A stretch of DNA of 32,000 nt from contig NC_010628.1 of NCBI RefSeq assembly GCF_000020025.1, forward strand, positions 3,690,001-3,722,000. The letters run 5' to 3'. The DNA comes from Nostoc punctiforme PCC 73102 (GTDB lineage: Bacteria; Cyanobacteriota; Cyanobacteriia; Cyanobacteriales; Nostocaceae). This document shows positions 1,843 to 25,300 of the stretch, piece by piece. A program made the position numbers and the translations under genes. The notes under the pieces were generated by a model. It saw only the letters and a list, made by a program, of their open reading frames with translations. It did not search any database and was not told the origin of the DNA. Each line of letters starts with the position of its first letter. The first letter of the stretch is position 1.

Positions 1843-1859
1843 TGAAGGTGAAGGTACAA

Positions 1860-3107: not shown

Positions 3108-3183
3108 GTATAAGAGTGAGGAGTTTTATCTCCCCCTGCCCCTCTGCCCACCCGTCCCATCGCGTTAATTTCAAGAGGTGCTG

Positions 3184-4191: not shown

Positions 4192-4505
4192 TTTCTAACC
4201 TGAGCTTGTCTAGTGTGGTTTGGTCAGAAGCAGGCGATCGCCTTTATAGTTTCGAACAAGTCGCTTACCTCACCCAAACCTCGGTTTTATTACTAGAACG
4301 ATTTGCCCGCCTGGGACTAATTGAACCTGTAGGAATCATGCTGCGCCGACAGGATATGTTTCGCGTTGTGCAGATTCAAAGGTTGCACCGCGATCTGAAC
4401 TTGAATTGGGTCGGAGCAGCAATGGTGCTAGATATGGTAACTGAAATTGACCAACTCAAGGCGCAACTGCGTGCCTACCGTGCTGAATTACAAATTCGTA
4501 ATTAA
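4188..4505 (+). CDS. cbpM: CbpM-like chaperone modulator (MerR-type HTH)
   Basis: 105-aa ORF whose ATG overlaps the cbpA-like stop (ATGA at 4188-4191), implying translational coupling. Size, position and the [31 protein letters not shown]-like segment match the cbpA-cbpM arrangement. Confidence 0.65.
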
Positions 4506-4549
4506 GAGCGTTAACAAAATAATTTATTTCTCAGCTAAGGGGCACGATT

Positions 4550-7192
4550 ATGCAACCAACAAATCCCGAGCAATTTACCGAAAAAGCCTGGGAAGCCCTT
4601 GTTCGTACTCCCGAAATTGCCAAACAGTTTCAGCATCAGCAGATTGAGAGCGAACATTTGATGCTAGCGCTACTGGAACAGGAAGGACTCGCCAGTTCTA
4701 TTTTCAACAAAGCCGGGGTAAATGTTCAAAAACTACACGAGCGCACTATCGACTTCATCAACCGTCAGCCCAAAGTATCGGGGGCTAGCAGTGGTTCGGT
4801 ATACATCGGACACAGTTTAGAGAGGCTGCTCGATCGCGCCGAACAATACCGCAAAGAGTTTGGTGATGAATATATTTCTATTGAACATTTAATACTTGCC
4901 TTTGCCAAAGACGATCGCTTTGGTAAAGGGTTGTTTCAAGAATTTGGACTGGATGAAAAAAAACTCCGCAACATCATTCAACAGATTCGAGGGAGTCAAA
5001 AAGTGACAGATCAAAACCCGGAAGTTAAATATGAAGCGCTAGAAAAATACGGGCGCGATTTAACCCAATTGGCACATGAGGGCATACTCGACCCAGTGAT
5101 TGGACGAGATGAAGAAATTCGCCGCACGATTCAAATCCTTTCTCGTCGGACTAAAAATAACCCCGTGCTGATTGGTGAACCCGGTGTCGGTAAAACGGCA
5201 ATTGTAGAAGGATTAGCGCAGCGCATTGTCAGTGGTGATGTCCCGGAATCATTGCGCGTTGGCATAGCCGGCCGTAGGCATCGCAAACTAATAGCTTTAG
5301 ACATGGGTGCGTTAATTGCCGGAGCCAAATACCGGGGAGAATTTGAAGAACGCCTGAAAGCTGTCTTAAAAGAAATCCAAGAAGCACAGGGACAAATCGT
5401 CTTGTTCATTGACGAAATTCACACTGTAGTTGGTGCGGGTGCAACGCAAGGATCGATGGATGCTAGCAACTTGCTCAAGCCGATGCTCGCTCGCGGCGAA
5501 CTGCGCTGTATTGGTGCCACCACGCTAGATGAATACCGCAAGTACATTGAAAAAGATGCGGCTTTGGAACGTCGTTTTCAGCAGGTATATGTCGATCAGC
5601 CCAGTGTGGAAGATACCATCTCAATTCTGCGCGGTTTGAAAGAGCGCTACGAGTTACACCACGGCGTGAAGATTTCTGATAGTGCGTTAGTTGCGGCAGC
5701 TACTCTGTCTGCGAGATATATTAGCGATCGCTTCCTACCCGACAAAGCTATTGATTTGGTGGATGAAGCTGCGGCTAAACTAAAAATGGAAATTACTTCC
5801 AAACCAGAAGAATTAGACGAAATCGATCGCAAAATTCTGCAACTGGAAATGGAGCGGCTGTCACTGCAAAAAGAAACAGACAGTGCTTCCAGAGAGCGTT
5901 TAGAACGGCTGGAGAGAGAACTTGCAGAGTTAAAAGAACGCCAAGATGCCCTCAATGCTCAATGGCAAGCAGAGAAGCAAATCATCGATCGCATTCGCCA
6001 AATTAGACAAGAGATTGAGCGTGTCAATGTAGAAATTCAGCAAGCCGAACGCGATTACGACCTCAACCGGGCAGCAGAATTGAAATACAGCAAACTCACT
6101 GAGCTGCAACGACAACTAAAAGAAGCCGAAGCGCGACTAGCCCAAATCCAGACTAGCGGTAAATCTCTGTTGCGCGAAGAAGTCACCGAAGCTGACATTG
6201 CCGAAATTATCTCCAAGTGGACGGGTATTCCGGTGAGCAGACTGGTTGAATCGGAAATGCAAAAACTCTTGCATCTGGAAGAAGAGCTACATAAACGTGT
6301 GATTGGTCAGGACGAAGCTGTAAGAGCTGTTGCCGATGCAATTCAACGTTCCCGTGCTGGGTTGGCAGACCCGAATCGTCCCATTGCTAGCTTTATTTTC
6401 TTAGGCCCGACCGGGGTGGGAAAAACAGAACTGGCAAAAGCTTTAGCGGAATATCTGTTTGATACCGAAGATGCACTGGTGCGGATCGATATGTCCGAAT
6501 ACATGGAGAAACACGCTGTTGCCCGTCTCATCGGTGCGCCTCCAGGTTACGTGGGCTATGAAGAAGGCGGACAACTCACCGAAGCGATTCGCCGCCGACC
6601 TTATTCTGTAATTCTGTTTGACGAAATTGAGAAAGCTCATCCTGATGTATTCAACGTCCTGCTGCAAATCCTGGATGATGGTCGCCTAACTGATTCTCAG
6701 GGACGCACAGTAGATTTTAAAAATACGATCGCGATTATGACCAGCAATATTGGTTCAATATACATTTTGGATGTGGCAGGAGACGATAGCAAGTACGAAC
6801 AAATGCGCGATCGCGTCATGGAAGCAGTGCGAGAAAGTTTCCGCCCCGAATTCCTCAACCGCATTGATGAAATCATTATTTTCCACAGCTTGCGGAAGGA
6901 CGAGTTGCGCGAAATTGTCAAACTACAAGTGCAGCGTTTAGAGGAGCGACTGCGCGAGCGTAAACTCTCGCTCAAAATCTCCGACCAGGCTCTCGATTGG
7001 ATTGTTCAGGTCGGTTATGACCCAGTTTACGGTGCTCGTCCCCTGAAGCGGGCGATTCAGCGAGAACTAGAAACTCCGATTGCCAAAGCGATTCTACGCG
7101 GCGAGTTCCACGAAGGTGACACAATCTACGTCCATGTGGAACACGAACGACTGGTGTTGAAGCGCTTATCACCTGAACTGGTCAATGCTTAG
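4550..7192 (+). CDS. clpB: ATP-dependent chaperone ClpB (class I AAA+ disaggregase)
   Basis: 880 aa. It has a Clp N domain, NBD1 Walker A GEPGVGKT and Walker B LFIDEIH, a long coiled-coil M domain, and NBD2 GPTGVGKT / [10 protein letters not shown]. It is near-colinear with recalled Nostoc ClpB apart from a short insertion at 5258-5281. Confidence 0.97.
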
Positions 7193-8798: not shown

Positions 8799-9060
8799 AT
8801 GTGCTTACATCCCGAAGAAATTCCTCCTATTCCTGATGAAACGGTACGTGTAGCCAAAGCCGCATTCCCCAAAGGTAATTTATATATGCGACTGCGTGAT
8901 GAACTTGGAGTCTTTTATAAGGATGAAGATTTCGCATCACTGTATCCACAACGGGGTCAGCCAGCGCAAGCACCTTGGCGGTTGGCGATGATACTGGTGA
9001 TGCAATATCTAGAGAATTTATCTGATAGACAAGCAACTCTTGCAGTGCAAGGGCGGATTG
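8799..9060 (+). pseudogene. IS1182/IS5-superfamily transposase, N-terminal fragment only
   Basis: PDETVRVAKAAFPKGNLYMRLRDELGVFYKDEDFASLYPQRGQPAQAPWRLAMILVMQYLENLSDRQA matches the conserved InsH-type N-terminal domain. Similarity stops at ~9060, where base composition changes abruptly. Confidence 0.7.
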
Positions 9061-9165
9061 AGCGAAGGTGCTTCTGCGCCTTCGGTGGGTGCAGACCGTG
9101 AGAAGAGTCGGCGCGAAAAACAAACACTTGTCCAGGGCTTGTTCGAGAATGTTGCAAGGAGAATC

Positions 9166-10008
9166 ATGGACGACAATCAAGAACGACAAGACTTCGATCT
9201 AACCGAAAGCGATGAGCAACTCACCGTGGACGAAAAAACACTACTTGACGAACTCAGTATTGTCGGTGCTGCTCGCCGAAAATTCTTGGGGCAAAACATG
9301 GCTGCGGCACTCGGCACCTTCGCCTTCCACTTGCTGGCTAAAGAGGAGGTCTTTGCCACGCTCGCCGCTTCGCCCGACGCAGTGTTCGCTTCGACCGCTG
9401 GGGTGGAAAACGCCGTTAAGATCCTGTTGAAAATCAACGGCTCTACTCAACGCCTGGAAGTGGATTCGCGCACGGTGCTGCTCGATGCTCTACGCGAAAG
9501 ACTTGGATTGACCGGCACCAAAAAAGGGTGCGATCAAGGACAGTGCGGTGCTTGTACAGTGATCGTTGACGGACGCCGCGTGCTTTCGTGTCTGACACTT
9601 GCCGCGAGCTGCGAGGGAAAAGAGGTGACGACCATCGAAGGGCTGGCTGACGGCGACAATCTTCATCCGATGCAGGCGGCGTTCATCAAACACGACGGCT
9701 TCCAGTGCGGCTACTGCACGCCGGGGCAGATATGTTCGGCAGTGGCGCTTTTGCAGTAAGCCAAAAACGGCGACGCGAGTCACGTCACTAACAATTTGCG
9801 GATGAGTCCCCAGAATTTAGAAATCTCTGATGAAGAAATCAGAGAACGCATGAGCGGCAACATTTGCCGTTGCGGCGCTTATCCGGGAATCGTTGCGGCA
9901 ATCAAAGAAGTTCATGCCGGACGCGAAACAGCCCAAGCCTGGCATTTTGCAAGCGATGAAGAAATTGCCATTGCATTCAATGAGGGCAAAGCCGATGAAA
10001 TCGCTTAA
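9166..10008 (+). pseudogene. (2Fe-2S)-binding small subunit of a xanthine dehydrogenase/aldehyde oxidoreductase family enzyme (PaoA/YagT-like, Tat signal), interrupted by an in-frame TAA
   Basis: Twin-arginine motif AARRKFLG. Cluster motifs CDQGQCGACTV, FQCGYCTPGQ and, after the stop, MSGNICRCGAY. The TAA at 9757-9759 is in the same frame as the downstream part (ORFs 9040.. and 9796.. are both frame 1), so this is a nonsense mutation and not a frameshift. Confidence 0.8.
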
Positions 10009-10261
10009 ATATTCTAGCGCAACCGACGCGGCAAACGCCATTCGCACTGTTTCCGCTAATGAAACGGCACAGTTTCTCGCAGGCGGGACAAATTTGATTG
10101 ATTTGATGAAAGAATATGTCGAGCGCCCCAGCGAACTTGTTGACATCTCACGTTTGAATCTAGCGCAAATTAGCTCGACCTCGAACGGAATTTTTATCGG
10201 CGCGCTAGCCAAAAATACTGATACGGCTAACCATGCGCTCGTCCGGCAAAATTACCCGCTT
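9995..10261 (+). pseudogene. FAD-binding medium subunit (PaoB/CoxM-like), N-terminal ~88 codons only
   Basis: MKSLKYSSATDAANAIRTVS...AQFLAGGTNLIDLMK...LVDISRL...IGALAKNTD is the typical start of the FAD-binding subunit. The ATG overlaps the upstream stop. Homology ends at ~10260, at the junction with the IS110 fragment. Confidence 0.7.
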
Positions 10262-11222
10262 TCAAGAAACCGTATTTGCTTCGGGCTGAGGAACAAGCTC
10301 AAAACCTAAAGCTAGAGCCTTTTTTTGGAGGCTATTGATAACCCGTTCTTGGTAACGTTGCTCATAATAATCCATGCCAATATCTTGATAGTTATCTCCA
10401 GATGTCCAAAGTCGATAGAAAATTCGTGCCAGCTTATGAGCAGTAGCAGTGATATCTTTGGGCGTACCAAGGCGAGAACGTAAGCGACGATAAAAAGCAC
10501 GACTCGGCAGAATTGCTCTTGCCAGCTGTTTGTGCCGCCATCCGGAAAGCATTGGCAGCAGAGTTAACCACCAAGCGAGTTTGAGAACTTTTCACTTTAC
10601 CCCCAGTGATGCGATTGCAAGGGCAAAGACCAAGCCAGGAAGTAAAGTTTTTAACAGTTGGGAATCGGGTAGGATCTAAACCAAGCTCAGAAATAAGGGT
10701 TTGTACGGTAAGGATACCAAGACCATCAATGGCAGTAAAATCCACGCCACTAATTCGGTAAAGATGGGTACGTAAATCAAAAGCGGGTTCATTGCCTTGA
10801 GGTTTATTGCGGGGGTGCTTTGGTTGCGGAAGCGGAGATTCATCGAGATTAACTTTGTCACTAAATTGAGCCAAGCACTCCTGTATTTGGCGATCGCAAG
10901 CGGCTATCTGAGCTTGATAGACATCATAAAGTTGTAGTTCCTGTTGAAGTACAAAAATATGCTCATTGCGATAATCACCATTTAAAGCAGCAGCAATTTC
11001 TGTTTCAGAGCGTTTAGTACGGTGATGTCTTTTCGCTGCCAAAATTTGTGGGTCTGTTTCTCCAGCAACAATTGCTCGAATAATTGCCATCCCAGTAGTA
11101 CCAGTGATATCGCTAACCACCTTATGCAGTTGCACGTTCATCTGGGTTAAAGCTTTTTGCATCCGTTGAATATGAACACAAGCACTTTTGATAAGACTAT
11201 CCCGGTGGCGGATATAACTCAA
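10262..11222 (-). pseudogene. IS110-family transposase, lacking the N-terminal catalytic (DEDD) domain and frameshifted near 10540
   Basis: HIQRMQKALTQMNVQLHKVVSDITGTTGMAIIRAIVAGETDPQILA... and, in a second frame, AFYRRLRSRLGTPKDITATAHKLARIFYRLW match the C-terminal (Transposase_20-type) half of IS110 transposases. The two ORFs 10434-11222 and 10262-10552 overlap in different frames. Confidence 0.8.
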
Positions 11223-11289
11223 TACGGTTCAGTTAAGCCTAAAAGTTGTGTAAATTAAGGATTGTAATCAAGACTAGAAAGAAACTGTA

Positions 11290-11628
11290 GTGGATCTCAA
11301 AGACTTCTCGCTGGTGTCTCCAATTATACTTAGCAGTGATTTGCTAAAAGCGATAGAGACAGCCATACCTGCAACTGCTATTGAGCAAGCGATAAGCCTA
11401 CGGCAGGCTTCGCTTACCGCTACCAGTAAGGCCAATGAAGAAAGAAATCGTTCTTTGCCAGCACATTTGGTAGTTGGACTGGTGATAGCAATGAGCTTGT
11501 GGTCGAGAGATTCGATGCGAGATGTACTCAAAAACTTAGTTGATGGTCTTTCTGTGGCATGGATAAAAGTTGGGAAATATTGGCGAGTACCCTGTAAATC
11601 AGCAATTACTCAAGCTCGGCAACCCTAG
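11290..11628 (+). pseudogene. IS4-family transposase, N-terminal domain fragment
   Basis: The pattern ...NEERNRSLPAHLVVGLVIAMSLWSRDSMRDVLKNLVDGL...PCKSAITQARQ matches the IS4 N-terminal domain (R.LPA..VV......L.......V...L......P..SA...AR). No DDE domain follows. Confidence 0.55.
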
Positions 11629-11689
11629 CTGTCTAATTGGTATGTAAAGCAGGTAAGCTGAAAAAGAATCTACCAGCAGCAAAAGAAGC

Positions 11690-11904
11690 GTGATAGTAAA
11701 GAAGCCACGTCATCACCCACAACGAAGTTTTCCTGATGCCCAACGTATAATTGTGGAATGTGAGTTAAATAAATGTATCCATTGTGACAATAATTTAGTT
11801 AACCGCAGAGCCTGGCACATGCGTAAAACCGTTCAAACCATGAGTTTAGCAGTGTTTGTAGCAGGTAAAAGCAAAGAATGTAAGAATCGGCTCCGTACGC
11901 ACTT
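11690..11904 (+). other. Unclassified Zn-ribbon-containing ORF fragment, possibly IS-derived, cut by the IS701-like element
   Basis: IVECELNKCIHCDNNLVNRRAWHMRKTVQTMSLAVFVAGKSKECKN has CxxC...C spacing. The reading frame runs into the left inverted repeat at 11905. I cannot assign a family. Confidence 0.2.
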
Positions 11905-13361
11905 TACCCCTCTTCTGTCACTTTCCGAGTATTCTTAATAAAAGGATTAAAAGAAAAAACTCTGGAAGGTAAGCAGGGCAATGGATGTAGAATTACAGAT
12001 CCTAAAACATTTGGCAAGAGATGCCCACCCAACAGTTGCAATCGTAGATGGATATTGTGCAGAGTATAAAGACTTATTCAAAGAAGTAAGAAATTATGAG
12101 TGTTTCAAATATTTACATTTAGGAATAATTTCACCAATAAAAAGAAAATCATTACCAGAAATAGCTAAGGTTGTGAGTATCAACTCAGCGAGCGTCATTA
12201 CATCATTTTATAGCTAATTCAAATTGGTCAATAAATGAATTAAAGCTCCGAAGATTAAATCAAATCAAGAGAGCATTAAATGGAAATGCCATTACCGTAG
12301 TAATAGATGAAACAGGAGATAGAAAAAAAGGTAAAAAGACCGATTATGTAGCAAGACAATATCTAGGGAGTGTAGGAAAAATAGATAATGGAATAGTTAC
12401 AGTCAATGCCTATGGAGTTTATTGTAAAATAACATTTCCATTAAGTATAAAAATATTTAAACCTAAAGGAACGCTAAAAGAATCAGATAAATACAAAACG
12501 AAAATAGAGTTAGCATCAGAAATTATTACAGAATTAATTGAATCAGGCTTTAATATTGAATTGGTGCTGGCTGATAGTTTATATGGCGAAAGTAGCCAAT
12601 TCATTCAAAAATTAACTGAATATAAATTAGCTTATGTTGTAGCGATTTCGTTGTAATCATGCGGTCTGGCTGCCAGCCAGTCAGAGGGTTAGGGCTAATA
12701 AGTGGTGTAAATTTGAGAGAACATTTAGTAATGAAAAATCAGAGACTAGGTATATTAGAGAAATAATTTATGGCAAAAAAAGAGCCACAACTTACTGGGA
12801 AATAACTACCGACCCAGAAACCATGCCTGAAAATTCTACCTCCTTTGTAATGACGAATCTTCAAGGAAATTTGAAGAAGACTTTAGGGGACTTATATGGA
12901 TTAAGAACCTGGGTTGAATATGGGTTTAGACAGTGTAAACAGGAACTAGGCTGGACAGATTACCGTTTCACTAATTTCCTACATATTGAGAGATGGTGGG
13001 AGATTATTTTTAGTGTTTATACAATGATTAGTTTAAATTCTCCAGTCTTCTTAGGCTTCAATCAATCTCGTCAACTTGAGACTGACGCACAAGAAAATAG
13101 TGATGTTGATTTTTCTAATCATCCACAATGGAATCATGAATCTGGATGGAAGAATACTTTAAATAATTTGCGTCTTATTATCCAACCACTTTTACTATTT
13201 TGGTTAATTTATCCCTGGTTAGGTATTTTCCCAAATTCAGATTTGTTACTGGGATTCAATCATTTAATTGCCGCAATGAATCAATTTAAACCCTGTTTTG
13301 CTTCTGGATGATTTAGCTTCTTTACTAATTGGTTATTCCGGAGAGTGACAGAAGAGGGGTA
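11905..13361 (+). mobile_element. IS701-family-like insertion sequence (~1.46 kb) bounded by terminal inverted repeats
   Basis: Left end TACCCCTCTTCTGTCACTTTCCG (11905-) and right end, reverse complement, TACCCCTCTTCTGTCACTCTCCG (-13361) match at 22 of 23 positions. The interior encodes an IS701-type DDE transposase. No matching direct repeat is visible in the flanks. Confidence 0.8.
11981..13311 (+). pseudogene. IS701-family DDE transposase, broken by two frameshifts (~12185-12217 and ~12648)
   Basis: Three frames together give CFKYLHLGIISPIKRKSLPEIAKVV / HHFIANSNWSINELKLRRL...VVIDETGDRKKGKKTDYVARQYLGSVGKIDNG...LADSLYGES / NHAVWLP...YIREIIYG...TWVEYGFRQCKQELGW. Removing one T from the TTT run at ~12646-12648 restores AIRCNHAVW. 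Confidence 0.8.
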
Positions 13362-13977
13362 TCTGCATTGTCTGCGGCATTTCCCATCGGCACAGTCAGT
13401 TGAATTTGCCATGCTCGCGCACCTGCATCGCGGATATGCTCGTAGATGCGAGGGAATTCAGGAGCAGACAGACGGTTGATTTGGGTATTGCAACCGAAGG
13501 GGATGCCGACTTCTTTGAGGTAGCTCATGGTTCTGAGTCCAGATTTCCAAGAGCCTTTTTTCCTCGGAGGCGATCGTGAGTTGTTTCCATCCCATCTGTA
13601 GAAACAGAAACTTTAGCAATTCCCGCTTCTTTTATCCGGTGTGCCATCTCCAGCGAGATGCCGTATCCCCCGGTAGTCATACCACAGAGCATACCAGTCT
13701 GGGTAATGGCTTTTGCAATCACAAGCCAGTCTGGACGTAAAAAAGCTTCTCCTCCAATGAGAGTTACTTCTTTAATACCAACATAGGCTAACTGCTGAAC
13801 AAGATTAAGAGCTTCTTCAGTAGAAAGTTCTTTATCTCGTGCTTGTCCCGCCCGCGAACCACAGTGACTACAAGCAAGGTTGCATTTCAGAGTGATTTCC
13901 CAAACGGCATAACTGGTTCGATGGTGCTTGTCAGACACTGTTTTGCCTAGCGTTTTAGCATTGGGTTCGGAAGTCAA
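13362..13977 (-). pseudogene. Radical SAM (SPASM-class-like) peptide maturase, frameshifted at an A6 run (~13548-13553) and 3'-truncated by the IS701-like element
   Basis: The CNLACSHC (CX3CX2C) cluster motif follows YAVWEITLK. Also present: GGEAFLRPDW, TTGG, VSVSTDG...HDRLRG. Reading GGAAAAAAGG with one extra A gives RGKKGSWKSGLRTMSYLKEVGIPFGCNTQINR, joining ORFs 13525-13977 and 13325-13528. The protein sequence ends at ...PMGNAADNAD, where the IS inverted repeat begins, so no C-terminal Cys-rich SPASM region remains. Confidence 0.8.
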
Positions 13978-14015
13978 AAGCTCTTATGGATTTATTAACT
14001 AGACGAAAGCCATTG

Positions 14016-14285
14016 TTAATAAAGCTCGGTTGGTAAACCGTACATAGCAATTGATGCTCTTCCACCAGCGATCGCCTCAAGTTGAGCTTCATTGAGTTCC
14101 CCACCAATTGAGGTTGTCTCTGAAATTTCAGCGCTAGCAGCTTCCCATTCTCTTTGAGTAAAATAATATCCTGCTGCTTGTAAGAAAGTTCCACGTTCTT
14201 CTATTGGAGAGCTTTCAACTTGAGTGCAGAAATCTTCATCTGTTGTCACTCTCTGATAAAAAGCTTTTGCGCTTTCAATAGACAT
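14016..14285 (-). CDS. Nif11-like leader peptide RiPP precursor, core RASIAMYGLPTELY
   Basis: MSIESAKAFYQRVTTDEDFCTQVE...FLQAAGYYFTQREWE...ELNEAQLEAIAGG is a typical Nif11-type leader ending in the double-glycine cleavage motif, followed by a 14-aa core. The stop lies 38 nt upstream of the radical SAM gene on the same strand. Confidence 0.85.
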   Translation of the reverse strand: MSIESAKAFYQRVTTDEDFCTQVESSPIEERGTFLQAAGYYFTQREWEAASAEISETTSIGGELNEAQLEAIAGGRASIAMYGLPTELY

Positions 14286-14456
14286 ATAATTTCCACTTAT
14301 TAATACCTAAAAGATTAGGAAAAACAAGGTACAACTATAATGCACAATTTTTAGTTAAGACTATGTTTTTTTTCGTTTTGGTTTGTGCCATTATGAATTC
14401 ACTGTAGTTTATGTAAAATAGGATATTTGTTCAGCAACCATTTCATATAGAGGAAT

Positions 14457-15065
14457 TTAACTTACTTTTAACCGTCCTACCATCCACTCAAACCTTTTTG
14501 CCGCGAGCCCCACACAGTCTAAAAGGTTATCATTTAATTCATCCTCGTATTCTACATCTTTCGATAACGTTAAACCTTTACTATAAACCCGCCTACCATA
14601 ACCAAGCTGACTCAGCATTCCTTGCAATCTTTGAGAAAGCAAAGTTGCAATAACTTGATAAAAACGAGATGCAAATCCTATATCTTGCTGTAACTTTGCT
14701 GCTAATTGCTGTCGTTCAATTGACAAAATAATTGAATCTTCAATAGCTTTAACCGTTGCTAAAGGCAGCCGCCCATCAATGAAGGGTGTTTCGCCGATGA
14801 TTTCGCCTTTGCACAATCTTGCTATTTCTCTACCAGAAAGTTCAGTACCTTCTATAGCAGCAAAAGCACGAGCTAAGGGGTTACGCTCATTATCATCAAT
14901 AGACAAAGACATTGCTCCATCTAAAAGAATATACAGCCCATCCACAAGCCCTCTTTCACGGATTAGTACGGTGTTAGTAAGAATTTTTTTAATTTTACCA
15001 CAAGTCGTCATCCAATCGATGTCACTATCATGTAATCCTCCTAAAACAAATAGGACATCTCTCAA
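14457..15065 (-). CDS. Cyclic-nucleotide-binding-domain protein. This is the surviving second domain of a tandem cNMP-binding protein whose 5' part (15066-15335) is frameshifted and truncated by the ISKra4-like element.
   Basis: cNMP-binding fold motifs are present (LIRERGLVDGLYILLDGAMSL, GEIIGETPFIDGRLPLATVKAIEDSIILSI). Upstream, in two frames, lies a paralogous domain: SGEVIGEFPLVGNRLTATTVKAVEKSLVMSISQQKLSVKLQQDI / FASRFYRAIAIIFSDRIQ. There is no start codon before the TTG at 15065. Homology runs up to the IS end at ~15336. Confidence 0.6.
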   Translation of the reverse strand: MRDVLFVLGGLHDSDIDWMTTCGKIKKILTNTVLIRERGLVDGLYILLDGAMSLSIDDNERNPLARAFAAIEGTELSGREIARLCKGEIIGETPFIDGRLPLATVKAIEDSIILSIERQQLAAKLQQDIGFASRFYQVIATLLSQRLQGMLSQLGYGRRVYSKGLTLSKDVEYEDELNDNLLDCVGLAAKRFEWMVGRLKVS

Positions 15066-15288
15066 AGGTTGGCTTTGTGCTAAATTGCTACGTCCCTGTT
15101 GATTGATAGCGCTTTGAATTCTATCGGAAAATATAATTGCGATTGCACGATAAAAACGTGAAGCAAAACAATATCTTGCTGCAATTTTACTGATAATTTC
15201 TGTTGTGAAATCGACATTACTAAAGATTTTTCTACAGCTTTTACAGTTGTAGCTGTCAGACGATTCCCTACTAATGGAAACTCTCCTA

Positions 15289-16426
15289 TTACCTCGCCAC
15301 TGGATAATCTGACAATCTCTCGACTGAAGACTTCATGGGAGCATCCCAGTTTTTATTTAGTGAGCAAAGATTAATCCATTGAGATAAGCTCTGGCGTTGA
15401 GCTAAGACTTGAGGAACGTTATCAGATTTCCATTGTGCGCCAGAAATTTTGGTTCGACGGTCAATCTGTTTGACAGTAGACTCAATAGCACCAGAACCAA
15501 TGGAACAGATTTGTTCTGCTTGATAATATTGGTAATTGACAATCCGGTGTCGATGTTTCTCAAGATAAGTACAGAAATTAAAAGCTTGTTTTAGCTGACA
15601 GTCAGCAAAGACAGCGATAGCATCATCAACTTTTCCTTGCCAGAGAAGGATTTTAGCCTGATTGAGCCGTTGATTAGAACCGCCAATCTTGTGTAGGTTT
15701 TCCATCAGATGAAACCAATCAAGTACTTCCCGACGCTGGTGTTCGGGAGCAAAATCGCGGACAATATTCCAAATACCGTCATGGCCATCGCCAAGACAGG
15801 TCAAGATAGGAGCAATTGATTGGCTTTTGACCCAATCAATTACAAGACTATTTTCTTGAAATGAGGCAGCAATAGCTTGTTTTTCATGTAAGCAGGTAGC
15901 TTTATAACCCTTCCAATCACAGACTTGTCCCTTGATTGTACGAATGCGTATATTTCCTCCATCCACACTCAATTCTTCCACAGTTGATTCTACTTGCGGT
16001 AATTCAAAATTTTGACGATGCACTAATCGTTGCTGCACACTTTTTGATACTTCTACACCAGTTAAATATTCAATATCTTCTGCCGCACGTTGATACGATA
16101 CCGACGCGCTGATTCGTAAGCAACAAGCTTCTAAATATGGACTCAATTGATTATGGGGTCTAATTTCTAGCTTTTGTGCTTGAGAGTTTGTAATTGGCAG
16201 TTCTCCAATAATACTTTTTATTTTTCGTTTGTATCCTCTGCTTTCTCCTGTGGCATTTTCGATAAAAAAACCCTACTTCTGGCATTACATGCTTCCGCAT
16301 TTGAGAGCGTACTACTTCTTCTATTTTTGCCAAACTTGTGAGTTGCTCACCCGTAGTACTTTTGTACAGTATCTTTGCTATTGCACGAGAATATTCTTTT
16401 ATCTGTTGTTCTTCTTCAGGAGTCAT
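15289..16426 (-). pseudogene. ISKra4-family transposase, split by a frameshift near 16150
   Basis: The 285-aa ORF has LTCLGDGHDGIWNIV, VLDWFHLMENLHK and IGSGAIESTVKQIDRRTKISGAQW, which are motifs I recall for ISKra4-type transposases. The 88-aa ORF 16160-16426 supplies the N-terminus in another frame. The reading frame runs through the left IR into flanking DNA. Confidence 0.7.
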
Positions 16427-16554
16427 TGATACACCTAGTCTTGATGACTTTATTATCCCTTCCTGATATCCCCTTACTTCCTGACTTCCGTTTTCTGTAA
16501 CAATCCTTCCCTGTTATTTATTTGTTTTGGAATAATAAAAACTGGGATGCACCC
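15337..16554 (-). mobile_element. ISKra4-family-like insertion sequence (~1.2 kb) with terminal inverted repeats
   Basis: GGGAGCATCCCAGTTTTTATT (15337-15357) against the reverse complement of AATAAAAACTGGGATGCACCC (16534-16554) matches at 20 of 21 positions. The interior encodes an ISKra4-type transposase. The flanking sequences belong to two unrelated genes, and no target duplication is seen. Confidence 0.75.
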
Positions 16555-17803
16555 TTTGTATACAAGCTCATTTCTGCCAAAACCTCCCGGCAAAACAAAT
16601 TTAAATCAATCGGTTTTAGTTCGTACTGTAGTTTTCCAGCTTCTACACTTTCGATAATAAGAACTTCATCCGTGAATTGGTTTATCTGCTCAACTGCTGT
16701 TTGAAGATTCTGCAAACACTGTAATTTCTTTTCCTCACTCCAATGGTGACTATGACGTTTCAATAAGCTAGTTGAATATGAAATAATATTTAAAGGGTTA
16801 CGAAATTCATGGAAAATCATAGAGGTGAAGTACGCTCTATCTTCAGCAAGTTGTTTTTCTTGCTGTATAATTCGGCGATTCTCTTCTTTTGCTTGTTGGG
16901 ATTCAGTAATGTCCCGAAAGCTCCATACTGTGCCAATAATTTCTTCAGCGAGTCGCAGAGGTTTACTGTATTGCTCGAAAAACCTCCCATCTTTCAATTC
17001 TAAAATATCACAGCTTACAAAATCTATTTGGCTATCAAATTGGTTGACATTTCTGCAAAATCTTTCTGGATTTTTAACCTGGTTCTTATAAAAAGTCAGA
17101 TATTGATTATGATTGGATAAAGTAATAATAGAATCTTGAATATGCCACATCTGGGAAAATTTTGATTAGAGCTAATAATATCTCCATTATATCTGATAGC
17201 AATAACCCCATCAGCAATAGATTCTAGAGTTGCTTGAAGTAACGAAAGAGAATTCTCCAGTTTTACTTTTTCCGCCTCGCACTCTGCCCTCTTGTGAAAT
17301 AATTGCTGATTGACGTACCTTGATTCACTTAGAAACTTTTCTTCTTTACATTCTAATACTTGATTAGATTTATCTAAGCTGAATAAAGCTTGTTTGCGTT
17401 TGCTGATATCTCGGATCAGGATACAAACATACTCTTTAGCTTCATATTCCATATATGTAGCAGAGATTTCCACAGAAAAATATTGTCCTTTTAAAGTTTT
17501 ATATAGAGATTCAAAATATAAGAAACCTTGTTGTTTGATACTATTCCAATAATTTGGCCAAACTTCTAGCGGAAAGTCTAGTATTATATTATGTATAGTC
17601 CTAGAGACTAATTCTTCATAAGGATACCCTACCAAACTACAAGCTGCATAATTAACGTATATAATCTGTGCATTTGACGTTATCCAGAAAACTGCATCTG
17701 TTAAACGTTCCATTAAAAATCTGTTAAATAGCAACTCTTCTTCTAATGGCAACATAGCGAATTTAGATGTTTGTAGCTCAGAAAAACTATTTTTGAGAAT
17801 CAT
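16555..17803 (-). pseudogene. PAS-domain sensor histidine kinase, frameshifted (~17151-17156) and lacking the HATPase domain (cut by the ISKra4-like element)
   Basis: Two PAS-like segments are present (AVFWITSNAQIIYVNYAACSLVGYPYEEL..., ADGVIAIRYNGDIISSNQNFP/QMWHIQDSI...). A HisKA H-box FTSMIFHEFRNPLN follows. The sequence ends ...EVLAEMSLYTKG at the IS boundary, before any N/G1/G2 boxes. Confidence 0.75.
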
Positions 17804-18627
17804 AAATTTTGAGCGTAGTAATTTATAACGAACGTGAGTTAGACTAGGCAAGATAGGAATTATACATATAGAACTCCGATTTTATTTTTTAAAATCTCCT
17901 GAGACTGAAAAGCCCGTTTATCAAGATTCCATCTGAAATATTGCTCATAAATCAAACATGAGTTTTATATATTTAAAGTATTACGTGTATAGTATCTATC
18001 GAAATTCTTAATGCCTTGTTCACACAGAATCAAATAGGCATTTTCTGATGAGATCAGCTAACCTCTTATAGAACCCATTTGACAATCTCTTCGCTTTCAA
18101 CAGAACAGGGAGCTGCAATTAGTGCTACAGGATGGCTTTGACCAAACAAAGATAATAGTTTCGGAGAGTGTAGACACTTTTTCGCTGCTGAGTTCACCAT
18201 TGCAAAAAACCGAAATTCCATAATTACTTAGCCTAAAAAGCAAGAAACTAATTAACAATCAGTAGTTTTACTGTTGCCGATGCGTTACACAATATCTGAC
18301 ATATTCATGCCACACATCGACCTTTTCTGCTTGTTTACGTGCAGTTTTCACGCCTGGAGAATGCAAGAATGCGATCGCCTGATTGCAGAAAACTGCATAA
18401 TTAGCGAATATTCTCTTGCCTATCATCCAAAGATGCAGTTCTATTAGATACTCAAATAATCTATATGAAAGCCCATCCTATGAGGAAAAACTACAAACTA
18501 CATAAGTGTTTGCAGTATATTTTTGAACTTCCGCTTTATAAAGTATTAGTTTTTATGTATTGTTAGTAGATAGCAACTATCTTGATTATGGTTTACTATA
18601 CCCAAGTGCTGCGAGTGGAGATATACA

Positions 18628-20789
18628 ATGTCCAGTTTGAGTGGATGGGTTGCTTTGTTTGGTATTGCCATAGTTAGCGTTAGTACTTTCTCTTGGAACT
18701 GTGCTAATGCTCAAATTACTTCAGATGGTACTCTACCGACTAACTCTAGTATTCAAAAAGAAAGCAACACTTTTAATATCAGAGGAGGAACTCAATCTGG
18801 AGGTAATTTATTTCACAGCTTTGGGGAGTTTTCTGTTCCTACTGGCAATACTGCAATATTTAATAATGCTGCGGATATTCAGAACATTATTAGTCGGGTC
18901 ACGGGAAATTCAATATCTAATATTAATGGATTAATTACTGCTAATAGCACAGCTAACCTATTTCTAATTAATCCAAATGGTATTGTTTTTGGTCAAAATG
19001 CGCGTTTGGATATTGGCGGTTCGTTTTTAGCAAGTACGGCAAGCAGTTTGAAGTTTGCAGATGGCTTTGAATTTAGCGCTATAAATCCTCAGTCTGTACC
19101 TTTGCTGAGTATTAATGTGCCAGTAGGTTTGCAGTATGGGGCAAATCCGGGAAATATCCTTAATCAATCCCAAGCCTTCGATAGTAGTGGTGAAATCGTT
19201 GGTTTTCAAGTTAAGCCAGAGAAAACCCTGGCACTGGTGGGGGGTGATGTTGTGATAGAAGGGGGGTTTCTTGTTGCCCCATCAGGACGGATTGAGTTAG
19301 GGAGTGTTGCTGGTAACAGTTTCGTAAGCCTGAAACCAAATGATACTGGCTATACTCTAGGTTATAAGGGCATTGAGAACTTTAAAGATATTCATCTAAC
19401 GCAAGAAGCTTTTGTAGCTACTGATGGAGACAGTGGCGGTAGTATTCAGGTGCAGGGTGCCAATGTAATACTTGCAGACGGGTCGCAAATTTCAGCAGTT
19501 ACTTTAGGTGAAGGCACAGGAAAAGGTTTGACGGTGAATGCCACTCAGAGTCTGCAACTGATTGGTACTTCTGCTGACGGTCTATATTCCAGTGGCTTAT
19601 TTTCTTCAACTTATGGCACAGGGGCAAATGGAAACTTAACAATTAACACTCGTGATTTGCTTATTCGAGATGGGGCAGTAGTTAGAGCAGGGACTTTTGC
19701 GGCAGGAAAGGGGGGGACTTGACGGTCACAGCCGACTCTGTGCAACTGATTGGTACTTCTACTGACGGTCTATATCCCAGCGCCTTATTCACTTCATCTG
19801 ATAATGGCACCACCGGAGATGCCGGGAACTTAACGATTGACACTCGTGATTTGCTTATTCGGGATGGAGCACAAGTTAGTGCTGGCACTTCTGGTGAAGG
19901 AAAAGGGGGAAATTTGTCTCTCACTGCTGACTTTGTGGAACTGATTGGTATCTCTGCCAACGGTCGGGCTTCTAGCGGCTTGTTTGCCAGCGCTGTAGGA
20001 ACAGGAAAAGCGGGAGACTTATTAATTACTACACAGCAGTTGCTTATCTCTAATGGAGCAGTGGCTACAGTCAGCAGCCGTGGAGAAGGTACGACGGCAG
20101 GTAACATTGTTATTAGTGCTAACTCTGTGCGCTTAGACAACGGTCAGATTACGGCACAAACTCTCTCTGGCAATGGTGGTAATCTCAACTTCAACATTGC
20201 TGACTTATTGATGCGTCATGGCAGCAAAATTTCGACCACCGCAGGTACAGCGCAATCAGGTGGCAACGGTGGTAACATGAAGATCGATTCAAGATATATC
20301 ATTGCTATCCCCGAAGAAAACAGCGACATCACAGCTAACGCTTTCACAGGAACCGGTGGAAAGGTCGAAATCAATTCTCAAGGTATCTTTGGTATCGAAT
20401 CGCGGACAAAACCAACCGAAAAAAGTGATATTACCGCCAGTTCAGAACTTGGGGTTTCAGGTGTAATCAATATTAAAGCACCCGATACAAGTTCCATTCA
20501 AAATAGCTTCACCGAATTACCCCCAGTTATTGATACCAACGCACTCATCGCCAATAGTTGCATTTCACGCGGTACTAAACGGCAAGAAAACTCTTTTACA
20601 ATTACAGGTTCCGGTGCTTTGACCCCCAATCGTCCTGGGGTTTTGGTTTCTAACTACACAACTGGTGAGGTGAGAGGCGTGGAAACTACATCCCGTCCCT
20701 GGAAAAAAGGCGATCCGATTATCGAACCGACTGGTCTATATCGCCTGAATAATGGGCAGTTGCTATTGAGTCGAGAATGTTCTAACTAA
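18628..20789 (+). pseudogene. Filamentous-hemagglutinin-N-terminal (TPS) domain exoprotein, TpsA-like, split by a frameshift at a G7 tract (19710-19716)
   Basis: A signal peptide is followed by the TPS domain (NIRGGTQSGGNLFHSFGEFSVPTGNTAIFNN...ISRVTG...ANLFLINPNGIVFG). Then come ~63-aa beta-helix repeats (GKGG.LT..A..V.LIGTS.DG...). An eighth G would give GKGGDLTVTADSVQLIGTS, joining ORFs 18628-19722 and 19719-20789. Confidence 0.85.
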
Positions 20790-22368: not shown

Positions 22369-25300
22369 ATGGCAAATATCATTGGAACCAAGGCAAATGA
22401 CATTTTACAGGGCACTAACAGTGCAGATACGATTGATGGTAAAGCTGGAAATGATACCATCATAGGGGGTGGAGGCAACGACACCTTAACAGGTGGGGGC
22501 GGCAAAGATACATTTATTTACAGTTTAGACGATAACGTTAATACCATTACCGATTTCGGTGGTGTAGGTAAAGGGACAAATCCCTCCGCAGCAGTCCAAG
22601 CCGAAGTGGATACCGTCCAATTTGAAGGCTCCAGTGTTAGAAATATGCTGCTTACTCAGAACGGCAACAATCTGGAAATTACCTTTGATGGGCTAGATAT
22701 TGTAATAGCTGATACAAAGGTCATACTGGAAAACTTCAAATTAGAAAACTTAGATAACCTTAAAGCTTCTGGAACTACTAGGCCAGCCATTGGTAATATC
22801 CTATTTTATGGAGAAACTAGCATCACCGATAGTTTTGATGTGTTTGATGCTAATTCTACTCAAACGAGCCTGTTCAACAGAAACACTGTTACCTTCCTCA
22901 ATGACCTAGACAATAATATTACAGGTTTTGATAACTCAGATGATGTAGTCAATGGTCAGGGGGGTAATGACAAAATCGATGGCTTAAGTGGTGACGACTT
23001 GCTGCGAGGTGGTGCAGGCAATGATACCCTCATTGGTGGTCTGGGTAATGACACCCTTGTTGATAATAGTGGCAATAACTCCCTTATTGGTGGTATTGGT
23101 AACGATATATTGCGTGTTGACTCTTCAACAGGTGCTAACACCCTCATCGGTGGCACTGGTGACGATACATTGAGCGCTCAAGGTTCACAAAGTAATAATT
23201 TACTCCTTGGCGGTGATGGCAATGATTATCTTAATTCCGGTGAGTTTCCTAACCTAGTCGATACTGTTGCTTCCTTAGGCAATAACACCCTCAATGGTGG
23301 TGCTGGTAACGATACATTGCGTGCTGACTCTCCAAAAGGCAATAACTTACTGTCTGGGGACGATGGCAATGATTATCTTAGTGCCTCTGGTAGTACTGGT
23401 TTTAGAAGGCAAAGCTACTATGACGACTTTGAATTTACACCTTTAGGCAATAACACCCTCAACGGTGGTGCTGGTGACGATACATTGCGTGCTGAGTATT
23501 CAGCAGGGGATAACCTACTGTCTGGTGGCGATGGCAATGATTACCTCTCCATCTCTGGCTCTGTCATCAGGTACAACGGTGGAGATAGTTTTTACCTAAC
23601 CACAGGCAATAATACTCTCAACGGTGGCGCTGGCGATGATACATTGCATGCTGAGTATTCAACAGGGGATAACCTACTGTCTGGTGGCGATGGCAATGAT
23701 TTCTTCTATGTAAACACTTTATCCCAAACAGTAGATGGGGGTAAGGGTGACGATTTGTTGTCTGTTGATTACAGTAATGCTACAGTAGGTATTACAACAA
23801 CAACATTCAATGCCGCTACAAACAAGGGAGAAATTACGGCGGGCAGCGATCGGGTTAGTTACAACAATATTGAACGATTAAATATCTTAGATACAGCCTA
23901 CGATGACAACATTGTGGGGAACGATGGCAACGATACGTTTTCCTTGGATAGTGGTGGTAAAGATACTATTGATGGGGGCAAGGGTGACGATTTGTTGTCC
24001 GTTGATTATAGCAGTGCTACAGAAGGTATTACAACAACATTCAATGCCGCTACAAACAAGGGAGAAATTACAGCAGGTAGCGATCGGGTTAGTTACAAGA
24101 ATATCGAACGATTAAATATCTTAGGTACAGGCTACGATGACAACATTGTGGGGAACGATGGCAATGATACGCTCTCCACGGGCTATGATGGCCAAGATAC
24201 TATTGATGGAGGTAAGGGTGACGATTTGTTGTCCGTTGATTACGGTAGTAATACAGTAGGTATTACAACAACATTCAATGCCACTACAAACAAGGGAGAA
24301 ATTACAGCGGGTACTAATCGGGTTAGTTACGAAAATATCGAACGATTAAATATCTCAGGTACATTCTACGATGACAACATTGTAGGGAACGATGGCAACG
24401 ATACGCTCTCCGGCGGCTATGGCGATGATACCATTATTGGCGGTGCAGGTAATGATATCCTTACAGGTGGGAATGGTAACGACATCTTAACTGGTGGCAT
24501 CGGTAATGATAAATTTGTTTACAACTTGTTAGAAAGCAGCTATAACATTGGTACAGACATAATTACAGATTTTGGTGGCATTGGTAAAGGCTTAAATCCC
24601 TCAGCAGCAGTGATTGCCTCCTTAGACACTTTGCAATTTATAGATGATAGTAGTTTCCATCTATTCACTGCTCAAAATCTGCAACTAACTCAAAATGGTA
24701 ACAATGTAGAAATCACCTTTGAAGATTCATTCAATGCCAATAATGGCAAAGTCATTCTCCAAAATTTCAAACTAGAAAACCTGGATAATCTGCCAGCAAC
24801 TTCTTCACAACCAGCAGCTATTGGCAATATCCTGTTTGCTGGACAAACTAGCATCACTGACAGTTTTGATGTGTTTGACGCTAATTCCACTCAAACTAAT
24901 CTGTTCAACAGGAACACTGTTACCTTCCTCAATGACCTCGACAACAACATTACGGGTTTTGACAACTCCAATGATGTTATCAATGGTCAGGGAGGTAACG
25001 ATATCATTGACGGCTTGAGTGGTAACGATCTTTTGAGAGGTAATGCAGGAAATGATACTCTCATTGGTGGTGCGGGAAATGATACTCTTATTGGCGGTGG
25101 GGGAAATAATAATCTTGACGGTGGTAGTGATGACGATACATTGAGTGCTAGCGGTTCAACAGGCAATAATATTCTTAATGGAGGTACAGGTAACGATACA
25201 TTGAGTGCTAGCGGTTCAACAGGCGATAACCTGCTCTTTGGGGGCGATGGCAACGATTCTCTAGACATTTCTGGCGGCTACTACAGCGACGAGTTTTCCT

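What the first reader, a model, noticed from the sequence alone, without database searches (positions are those of the whole stretch)
13362..14285. Nif11-leader RiPP precursor with an M-Y-G core next to a radical SAM maturase: candidate splicease-type (or new Tyr-directed rSAM) locus, caught mid-inactivation
Seen in sequence:
- An intact 89-aa ORF has a textbook Nif11-type leader ending in ...EAIAGG and a 14-aa core, RASIAMYGLPTELY.
- The core has no Cys and only single Ser and Thr residues, so sactipeptide, ranthipeptide and lanthipeptide chemistry is unlikely.
- 38 nt downstream on the same strand lies a radical SAM gene with the CX3CX2C motif (CNLACSHC).
- That maturase has a 1-nt deletion in an A6 run. 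Its 3' end, where SPASM auxiliary-cluster cysteines would be, is replaced by the inverted repeat of an IS701-like element at 13361/13362.

Established knowledge:
- Cyanobacterial Nif11/NHLP-leader precursors are processed by diverse maturases.
- One radical SAM family, the spliceases (PlpX type), excises tyramine at X-Y-G motifs to leave alpha-keto-beta-amino acid residues.

Inference: the MYG in this short core is the modification site. The alternative is a Tyr-based cyclophane or ether crosslink using Y7 or Y14.

No PlpY-like partner, protease or exporter remains in the window. The downstream part of the operon was probably lost to the IS.
Basis: partly seen in the sequence, partly recalled or inferred. 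Interest (0 to 1): 0.78.

Follow-up and report, generated by a model that had tools for sequence, protein, structure and literature searches.

The report
Broken spliceotide gene cluster remnant
This is a decayed copy, in Nostoc punctiforme, of a well-known cyanobacterial peptide pathway in which a radical SAM "splicease" cuts tyramine out of an X-Tyr-Gly motif; the small precursor gene is intact, but its enzyme has been destroyed by a frameshift and a mobile element.

Summary
Window 14016-14285 (-) encodes an intact 89-aa Nif11-leader precursor with core RASIAMYGLPTELY. It is identical to WP_012409503.1 of Nostoc punctiforme PCC 73102. Thirty-eight nt downstream lies the N-terminal 206 codons of a radical SAM gene. 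That gene has lost one A from an A7 run and is cut after ...NAD by the inverted repeat of an IS701-family element (11905-13361).

The splicease reading is supported:
- The fragment belongs to NCBIfam TIGR04103. It is 75-79% identical to the characterised spliceases PlpX and PcpX, which themselves score 677 and 731 bits on TIGR04103.
- The precursor aligns with PlpA2, with AIAGG..AMYG in register.
- In 80 related loci, 89 of 93 upstream Nif11 precursors carry YG in the core, and 67 loci have a PlpY-like ORF directly after the enzyme.
- The nearest intact ortholog (L038, 91-96% identical) has the layout cNMP gene, precursor, 433-aa enzyme, PlpY.

In this window the SPASM half and plpY are absent. 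The upstream transport-associated gene is also cut by an IS. The frameshift recurs in at least 10 independent assemblies.

Verdict: an inactivated member of the known type I spliceotide family. There is no new chemistry, and interest is low.

The parts
14016..14285 (-). Intact spliceotide precursor gene (PlpA-type). It has a Nif11 leader ending LEAIAGG and the 14-aa core RASIAMYGLPTELY, with the predicted splice site M-Y-G.
   Evidence: ORF. TIGR03798 at 65.5 bits and Pfam Nif11. Exact match to WP_012409503.1 / ACC81516.1 of Nostoc punctiforme. 52% identical to PlpA2 with AIAGG..AMYG aligned.
13362..13977 (-). Pseudogene remnant of the splicease (plpX-type radical SAM, TIGR04103). Only the N-terminal 206 codons remain, including the CX3CX2C motif (CNLACSHC). 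They are read in two frames, and the SPASM half is missing.
   Evidence: TIGR04103 at 389.6 bits over model positions 1-190 of 412. tblastn shows two frames, 13926-13555 and 13561-13352. 91-96% identical to the intact ortholog in L038. 75% and 79% identical to PlpX and PcpX.
13556..13561 (-). A6 run where one A has been lost relative to orthologs (A7). This is the frameshift site.
   Evidence: DNA alignment with L038 and four other orthologs. The same split ORFs occur in at least 10 independent assemblies.
11905..13361 (+). IS701-family insertion sequence (1457 bp) whose right inverted repeat truncates the splicease gene. Its own transposase is broken over three frames. There is no target-site duplication.
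   Evidence: 23-nt inverted repeats at 11905-11927 and 13339-13361. NF033540 IS701 hits on three ORF pieces. Three-frame translation. Flanks are CACTT and TCTGC.
14457..15336 (-). Remnant of the cyclic-nucleotide-binding 'bacteriocin-type transport-associated' gene that precedes the precursor in intact loci. It is 5'-truncated and frame-shifted.
   Evidence: TIGR03896 at 226.9 bits (cut-off 161). blastn gives 92% identity to L038 7668-8554, and codons 1-71 have no counterpart. Translation.
15289..16426 (-). ISKra4-family transposase ORFs (split) of the element that cuts the upstream accessory gene. The element's boundary lies at about 15337.
   Evidence: NF033572 transpos_ISKra4 at 251.5 bits. 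ORFs.
10434..11904 (.). IS debris on the far side of the IS701 copy: an IS110-family fragment (10434-11222, -) and an IS4-family N-terminal fragment (11290-11628, +). This sequence sits where the rest of plpX and plpY should be.
   Evidence: NF033542 IS110 at 109 bits over model positions 126-298 only. Pfam Nterm_IS4 and NF033592.

Best explanation
The region is the remnant of a type I (cyanobacterial, PlpA/PlpX/PlpY-type) spliceotide biosynthetic locus in Nostoc punctiforme PCC 73102.

In the intact ancestral system the Nif11-leader precursor would be bound by the radical SAM/SPASM splicease together with a small PlpY partner. The enzyme would excise a tyramine equivalent (C8H9NO, -135 Da) from Tyr7 of the core at the M-Y-G motif. 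That leaves an alpha-keto-beta-methionine residue. The leader would then be removed at the GG site by a bacteriocin-type exporter. The product would be a roughly 13-residue ketoamide peptide of the protease-inhibitor type.

In this genome the pathway is dead:
- the splicease gene carries a 1-nt deletion;
- it is truncated at codon 206 by an IS701-family element;
- plpY and the SPASM half are absent;
- the upstream transport-associated gene is cut by an ISKra4 element.

Only the precursor ORF is still intact.

Shown here: family membership, orthology, the conserved motif and the lesions. Inferred: the chemistry at MYG, by homology to PlpXY and PcpXY, and that the truncated enzyme is inactive.
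For: - Family: the window fragment scores 389.6 bits on TIGR04103 over the half of the model that is present. The full-length ortholog in L038 scores 861.6 bits against a cut-off of 725.
- Link to characterised enzymes: machine-read PlpX and PcpX sequences from the supplement of PMC9484694 score 677 and 731 bits on TIGR04103 as the top family. They are 75% and 79% identical to the window fragment. PMC11002830 places PlpX in IPR026482.
- Precursor: 52% identical to PlpA2, with the leader end and AMYG aligned.
- Motif conservation across 80 related loci: 89 of 93 Nif11 ORFs lying up to 1.5 kb upstream of the enzyme have YG in the core. 161 of 231 core Tyr residues are followed by Gly, against 17.6 expected. 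The residue before Tyr is Leu 79 times and Met 39 times.
- Partner gene: 67 of 80 loci have a PlpY-like ORF (LLPRSAW..Q..YL...KAKQALD) directly after the enzyme. The L038 Y protein hits PlpY and PcpY at E about 3e-8 in a 6-sequence database.
- Synteny with L038: cNMP gene, precursor, enzyme, at 81-92% nucleotide identity.
- Lesions. They are reproduced in independent assemblies.
- Published chemistry: tyramine excision at XYG, including MYG sites (PMC11414181; PMC5995677; PMC11626197).
Against: - No experiment exists on this precursor. Splicing at MYG is inferred by homology only.
- The PlpX and PcpX sequences used are machine-read from a PDF and contain errors, so the identities are lower bounds.
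- I could not scan the rest of the N. punctiforme genome. The 3' half of the gene plus plpY could sit elsewhere next to another copy of the IS, and the missing target-site duplication is compatible with IS-mediated rearrangement.
- Evidence against such a relocated copy is weak. Among the 120 best of 713 PlpY-like proteins, none came from the 8.23-Mb chromosome or from the many N. punctiforme runs.
Confidence: 0.9

Rival explanations
1. The orphan precursor is still matured, in trans, by a second intact splicease/PlpY pair (or another maturase) encoded elsewhere in the N. punctiforme genome. The precursor gene would then be functional rather than a relic.
For: - The precursor ORF is intact and identical in all 23 contigs read (the index lists it in 61 blocks of the collection).
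- Some genomes carry two TIGR04103 loci: L076 and L078 in one Nostoc genome, and L007 and L028 in one Moorena genome.
- PlpXY tolerates diverse substrates and is leader-independent (PMC11414181; PMC5995677).
Against: - No second splicease or PlpY from the 8.23-Mb N. punctiforme chromosome appeared in any protein search. Those lists are incomplete, however.
- An 89-codon ORF can stay open by chance for a long time after its partner dies.
Confidence: 0.1
2. The radical SAM enzyme is a new Tyr-directed crosslinking maturase (cyclophane or ether bond on Y7 or Y14) rather than a splicease.
For: - The core has two Tyr residues and an aromatic C-terminus.
- SPASM radical SAM enzymes that crosslink aromatic residues exist (established knowledge).
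Against: - The enzyme is 75-79% identical to two enzymes shown to excise tyramine.
- It belongs to the same equivalog model, with twice the score of the next family.
- The conserved element of the cores is Y-G. A spaced aromatic motif is not conserved.
Confidence: 0.02
3. The precursor is a lanthipeptide substrate of one of the LanM enzymes of N. punctiforme. This was generically expected for the strain's eight Nif11-type peptides by Haft et al. 2010.
For: PMC2887384 expected the eight N11P peptides of PCC 73102 to be processed by four LanM-like enzymes.
Against: - The core RASIAMYGLPTELY has no Cys, so no lanthionine can form.
- The gene sits directly upstream of a splicease gene in a conserved operon.
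Confidence: 0.01
4. The locus is actually functional. On this view the frameshift is a sequencing error in a homopolymer, and the gene continues beyond a simple IS insertion.
For: Homopolymer indels are common assembly errors (established knowledge).
Against: - The 150-aa plus 67-aa split is present in at least 10 contigs assembled from different runs.
- Beyond the IS lies another IS fragment, not the rest of the gene. No SPASM half or plpY is found in the 32 kb.
- Even without the frameshift, the ORF ends in the IS inverted repeat.
Confidence: 0.01

Closest known systems
plp cluster of Pleurocapsa sp. PCC 7319 (PlpA1-3, PlpX, PlpY), the founding type I spliceotide pathway (Morinaka et al., Science 2018; summarised in PMC5995677 and PMC11002830)
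   Same: - Nif11-type leader beginning MSIESAKAFYQR and ending LEAIAGG.
- An A-M-Y-G site a few residues into the core (PlpA2), and a YGLP context (PlpA1 ...PLYGLPI).
- The radical SAM enzyme is at least 75% identical over the 193 residues that survive.
- Gene order is precursor then X, followed by Y in orthologs.
   Different: - Here the X gene is frameshifted and loses everything after residue 206, and Y is absent.
- No PoyD-type epimerase or NHLP precursors lie in the window.
- The core is short (14 aa) with a single site.
pcp cluster of Pleurocapsa sp. PCC 7327 (PcpA, PcpX, PcpY)
   Same: - PcpX is the closest characterised enzyme, at least 79% identical.
- PcpA is spliced at an MYG site (PMC11414181).
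- Locus L018 (Hydrococcus rivularis) has a near-identical PcpY and a precursor with AMYG and PMYG.
   Different: PcpA has a long Pro-rich core with two splice sites. The window core has one site. The window enzyme is a pseudogene.
Intact orthologous locus L038 (Nostoc sp. P9121 bin 11); also the 420-aa ortholog of Nostoc/Anabaena sp. PCC 7120 (BAB73728.1, P0123)
   Same: - Same synteny: TIGR03896 cNMP gene, precursor, TIGR04103 enzyme.
- 81-92% nucleotide identity, enzyme 91-96% identical, precursor 67% identical.
   Different: - L038 keeps the full 433-aa enzyme (861.6 bits), a 71-aa PlpY-like ORF overlapping its stop, and NHLP precursors plus HlyD downstream.
- Its core is IIKSRYPGPVALYGIFPIPYDTI, with LYG where the window has MYG.
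Type II binary spliceases (RhaX/RasX, RcsX of Rheinheimera; PMC11626197, PMC11414181)
   Same: The same reaction at XYG (MYG in RcsA, LYG in RasA). The products are ketoamide protease inhibitors.
   Different: These systems lack a Y protein and use a helix in the leader instead. The relatives of the window enzyme almost all have a Y gene (67 of 80), so it is type I.

Membership tests
Spliceotide pathway, type I (PlpA/PlpX/PlpY) | The radical SAM maturase belongs to the PlpX family (NCBIfam TIGR04103 / InterPro IPR026482) and has the CX3CX2C motif. | tested here: met
   The fragment scores 389.6 bits over model positions 1-190 of 412, against 181.7 for the next family. CNLACSHC is present. PlpX and PcpX themselves hit TIGR04103 at 677 and 731 bits. 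Identity to them is 75% and 79%. The whole-protein cut-off of 725 cannot be reached by a half gene; the ortholog L038 reaches 861.6.
Spliceotide pathway, type I (PlpA/PlpX/PlpY) | The maturase has a C-terminal SPASM domain with auxiliary Fe-S cluster cysteines. | tested here: not met
   The gene ends at codon 206 in the IS inverted repeat. No match to residues 195 onward of relatives exists anywhere in the window. The domain is present in orthologs. The window copy is therefore a pseudogene of a member and not a functional member.
Spliceotide pathway, type I (PlpA/PlpX/PlpY) | The precursor has a Nif11 or NHLP leader and a GG cleavage site directly upstream of the maturase. | tested here: met
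   TIGR03798 at 65.5 bits. The leader ends in AIAGG. The gap to the maturase ORF is 38 nt.
Spliceotide pathway, type I (PlpA/PlpX/PlpY) | An X-Tyr-Gly splice motif in the core, conserved among orthologous precursors. | tested here: met
   MYG lies at core positions 6-8. 89 of 93 neighbouring precursors in 80 loci have YG. 161 of 231 core Tyr residues are followed by Gly, against 17.6 expected. Met is the second commonest residue before Tyr (39 of 161).
Spliceotide pathway, type I (PlpA/PlpX/PlpY) | A small PlpY partner (truncated RRE) encoded directly downstream of X. | tested here: not met
   No PlpY-like sequence is in the window (tblastn with the L038 Y protein). It is present right after X in 67 of 80 related loci. 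None was found from N. punctiforme among the top 120 PlpY-like proteins.
Spliceotide pathway, type I (PlpA/PlpX/PlpY) | [quoted passage not shown] | not testable with these tools
   This requires co-expression and MS. It has been shown for PlpA, PcpA, RcsA and RasA in the literature.
Sactipeptide / ranthipeptide / lanthipeptide | Cys residues in the core to form thioether links. | tested here: not met
   The core RASIAMYGLPTELY has no Cys. Sactipeptide and ranthipeptide maturase models score far lower: SkfB 89 bits and StsB 75 bits, and PapB 54 bits for the full-length ortholog.
GDL-motif peptide radical SAM/SPASM maturase (TIGR03913), the second-best family | Best match to TIGR03913, with an adjacent GDL-motif peptide. 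| tested here: not met
   TIGR03913 scores 181.7 bits against 389.6 for TIGR04103 on the fragment, and 417.8 against 861.6 for the ortholog, below its cut-off of 591.75. The precursor is Nif11-type.
IS701-family insertion sequence | Terminal inverted repeats flanking a DDE transposase of the IS701 family, with a target-site duplication. | tested here: inconclusive
   23-nt inverted repeats, 96% complementary. Three ORF pieces hit NF033540, each below the cut-off because the transposase is split over three frames. No target-site duplication.

The most novel reading that the evidence does not exclude
The intact orphan precursor may be kept because it is still spliced in trans by another splicease of N. 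punctiforme. Together with its closest relatives it may define a short-core spliceotide subclass, with a single site in a conserved Y-G-[L/A]-P-x-x-L-[Y/F/W] context, that has its own protease target. A model cyanobacterium would then make a natural spliceotide. Reviews say that no native spliceotide end product has yet been isolated (PMC9811515).
Probability: 0.08. Interest if true: 0.4.

Novelty: new member of a known kind. Interest (0 to 1): 0.15.

Why it matters
It matters little for discovery. The chemistry (tyramine excision at XYG), the enzyme family, the Y partner and the precursor type have all been described since 2018. The family is very common: at least 585 loci were found in one scan of species-representative genomes.

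The result has three modest uses:
- It corrects the expectation that this Nif11 peptide of N. punctiforme is a lanthipeptide substrate.
- It shows that the spliceotide locus of this model strain is dead, so the strain is not a native producer from this locus.
- It gives a clean example of IS-driven decay of a RiPP cluster in which the small precursor gene outlives its maturase.

The survey of 80 loci also documents how tightly YG is conserved and which residues precede it.

Tried and rejected
- Searched the papers library for 'TIGR04103' and 'radical SAM maturase 3': no papers.
- Looked for PlpX/PcpX or RasX sequences in the supplements of PMC11414181 and PMC11626197: none are held. PMC10533398 holds only plasmid names. 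Machine-read sequences were finally found in PMC9484694, file 14.
- Searched solved structures with the full-length ortholog. No splicease structure exists; the best match is SkfB at 89 bits.
- Tried to find the missing 3' half of the gene or plpY elsewhere in N. punctiforme:
  - A protein search with the C-terminal half of the L038 enzyme gave nothing from the 8.23-Mb chromosome.
  - A PlpY profile search also gave nothing from that chromosome.
  - The one near-identical Logan PlpY (P0345) comes from unrelated samples.
  - These lists visibly omit known full-length proteins such as P0123, so absence is only weak evidence.
- One call failed because the coordinates contained a stop codon.
- Considered programmed or transcriptional slippage at the A run as a rescue. 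Rejected as irrelevant, because the ORF would still end in the IS repeat at codon 206.
- Considered that contig L083 showed an uninterrupted upstream gene. Rejected: its 297-codon ORF is the same open frame seen in the window, running off the contig end.

Full report
**What is in the sequence**

On the minus strand, window 14016-14285 is an intact 89-codon ORF. It reads MSIESAKAFYQRVTTDEDF...ELNEAQLEAIAGG followed by RASIAMYGLPTELY.
- It matches the Nif11 leader models well above threshold: TIGR03798 at 65.5 bits against a cut-off of 32.3, and Pfam Nif11 at 50.6 bits.
- Thirty-eight nt after its stop, a TTG at 13977 opens a radical SAM ORF containing CNLACSHC. A GTG at 13938 is an equally plausible start.
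- tblastn with 120 relatives shows that homology runs in one frame from 13926 to 13555 and in another from 13561 to about 13352. Nothing else in the 32 kb matches the C-terminal 140-220 residues of these proteins.

**The lesions**

- Frameshift. A DNA alignment with the closest ortholog (L038) shows GGAAAAAAAGGC there and GGAAAAAAGGC here. One A has been lost from an A7 run, at window 13556-13561.
- Truncation. The restored protein reads ...TVPMGNAADNAD and then TPLLSLSGITN-stop, where relatives read ILLQPYELL. The break coincides with a 23-nt inverted repeat, with arms at 11905-11927 and 13339-13361. The repeat bounds a 1457-bp element whose ORF pieces hit the IS701 transposase model.
- State of the IS. 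Its transposase is itself spread over three frames. There is no target-site duplication (flanks CACTT and TCTGC). Its left neighbour is an IS4 fragment, followed by an IS110 fragment. The other half of the gene was therefore removed or moved by later IS-mediated events, and is not simply displaced by 1.5 kb.
- Reproducibility. The 150-aa plus 67-aa split is found in at least 10 contigs assembled independently from different sequencing runs. It is a real feature of the strain.

**Source organism**

The precursor is an exact match to WP_012409503.1 / ACC81516.1. That protein is named 'Nif11-like leader peptide family natural product precursor [Nostoc punctiforme]' and lies on an 8,234,322-bp contig. 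The 150-aa fragment clusters at 90% identity with 420-aa proteins named 'nif11-class peptide radical SAM maturase 3' from Nostocaceae, including BAB73728.1 of PCC 7120.

**What the enzyme is**

- The restored 206-residue fragment scores 389.6 bits on NCBIfam TIGR04103 over model positions 1-190 of 412. This is twice the score of the next family, TIGR03913 at 181.7.
- A scan of species-representative genomes found at least 585 loci encoding relatives, of which 80 were fetched.
- The closest, L038 (a Nostoc MAG), is 91-96% identical at the protein level and 90.5% at the DNA level over the fragment. It encodes a 433-aa protein that scores 861.6 bits on TIGR04103, against a cut-off of 725.

**Link to characterised spliceases**

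- A review states that PlpX belongs to IPR026482, a then-uncharacterised SPASM radical SAM subclass (PMC11002830).
- For a sequence test I took the machine-read PlpX, PcpX, PlpY, PcpY, PlpA1 and PlpA2 sequences from supplementary file 14 of PMC9484694.
- Despite reading errors, PlpX and PcpX hit TIGR04103 at 677 and 731 bits as their top family by far.
- They are 75% and 79% identical to the window fragment.
- The window precursor is 52% identical to PlpA2. The alignment places LEAIAGG-RASIAMYG against LEAIAGG-AVAAMYG.
- The literature shows that PlpXY and PcpXY excise a tyramine equivalent (-135 Da) at XYG, natively with X = Met or Leu, and that PlpY is a small gene directly downstream of plpX (PMC5995677; PMC11414181; PMC9811515; PMC11626197).

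**Is YG conserved?**

In the 80 loci I collected all Nif11-like small ORFs with an iterated profile.
- Of the 93 lying up to 1.5 kb upstream of the enzyme on the same strand, 89 have YG in the core.
- 161 of the 231 core tyrosines are followed by Gly, against 17.6 expected from composition.
- The residue before Tyr is Leu (79), Met (39), Ile (15), Ala (11) or Val (8).
- The closest relatives of the window precursor have short single-site cores in a similar context: ALYGLPRDL, PVYGLPPNL, AIYGLPPKLF.
- A PlpY-like ORF, with consensus LLPRSAW.SQ.AYL..L.KAKQALD, follows the enzyme directly in 67 of the 80 loci. The L038 copy (71 aa, overlapping the enzyme's stop) matches PlpY and PcpY. L018 carries a near-identical PcpY.

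Both fail to apply.

**State of the locus**

- Synteny with L038 is TIGR03896 cNMP-binding 'bacteriocin-type transport-associated' gene, then precursor, then enzyme, then PlpY.
- In the window the upstream gene lacks its first roughly 71 codons and abuts an ISKra4-family element.
- The surviving island, about 13362-15336, is bounded by IS elements on both sides. This explains why public short-read assemblies give roughly 2-kb contigs for it.
- No exporter, protease or PlpY is nearby.
- A truncated enzyme that lacks the end of the barrel and the whole SPASM domain is expected to be inactive. This step is inference.

**Open point**

I could not establish whether the strain has another intact splicease that could act on the orphan precursor. 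I also could not establish whether the missing half lies elsewhere in the genome. Two protein searches and one look-up gave no sign of either, but these lists are incomplete.

**Verdict**

The thing itself is an inactivated member of a known and very widespread family. It does not point to new Tyr chemistry. Haft et al. 2010 generically assigned the strain's Nif11 peptides to LanM enzymes. For this Cys-free peptide that assignment should be replaced by 'spliceotide precursor, orphaned'.

Noticed in passing
window 14457-15336 (-) and 15289-16426 (-): The gene upstream of the precursor is a TIGR03896 'bacteriocin-type transport-associated' cyclic-nucleotide-binding protein (227 bits). It has lost its first ~71 codons to an ISKra4-family element, whose own transposase is split into two ORFs. 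It is also frame-shifted near 15070-15220 relative to the L038 ortholog. NCBI nevertheless lists 228-aa and 283-aa proteins for it.
   Followed up: partly
window 10310-13361: A pile of IS debris: an IS110-family fragment (10434-11222, model positions 126-298 only), an IS4 N-terminal fragment (11290-11628), and the IS701 copy (11905-13361) with its transposase in three frames and no target-site duplication. This suggests repeated IS-mediated rearrangement or deletion at this site.
   Followed up: partly
window 9040-9759 and 9893-10309 (+): Xanthine-dehydrogenase-type genes: a 2Fe-2S subunit and an FAD-binding subunit. The FAD-binding ORF stops after 138 aa (Pfam model positions 3-89 of 170), just before the IS110 fragment, so it is probably truncated too.
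   Followed up: no
window 16518-17150 and 17096-17851 (-): A PAS-domain histidine kinase appears split into two overlapping ORFs in different frames, possibly another frameshifted gene.
   Followed up: no
window 18628-20789 (+) and 22369-26451 (+): A TPS (two-partner secretion) domain protein is followed by an overlapping 356-aa ORF with no Pfam hit. Further on lies a 1360-aa protein made largely of RTX calcium-binding repeats (343 bits).
   Followed up: no
window 985-7192 (+): Two tandem YfdX-family paralogues (985-1842, 2086-3060) are followed by DnaJ (3178-4191) and ClpB (4550-7192), forming a chaperone-type neighbourhood.
   Followed up: no
loci L022, L049, L050, L062, L068, L073, L075 and window 14016-14057: Short-core precursors related to this one share the context Y-G-[L/A]-P-x-x-L-[Y/F/W]: window MYGLPTELY, IYGLPPKLF, LYGLPRDLRW, VYGLPPNLTW, PYGLPPNLFF, IYGAPSGLW. 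Most other loci instead have long Pro-rich cores with repeated QP(L/M)YGV(V/I) sites.
   Followed up: partly
L038 12332-12823 (-), 13292-13567 (+), 13894-15339 (+): The intact orthologous locus also carries two NHLP-leader precursors and an HlyD-family gene downstream of PlpY. None of these has a counterpart in the window.
   Followed up: partly
(protein search outputs): The homolog searches listed only proteins shorter than about 400 aa. They omitted known full-length 420-433-aa family members, such as P0123 and the L038 protein, that are 85-93% identical to the query. Absence from these lists is therefore weak evidence.
   Followed up: no
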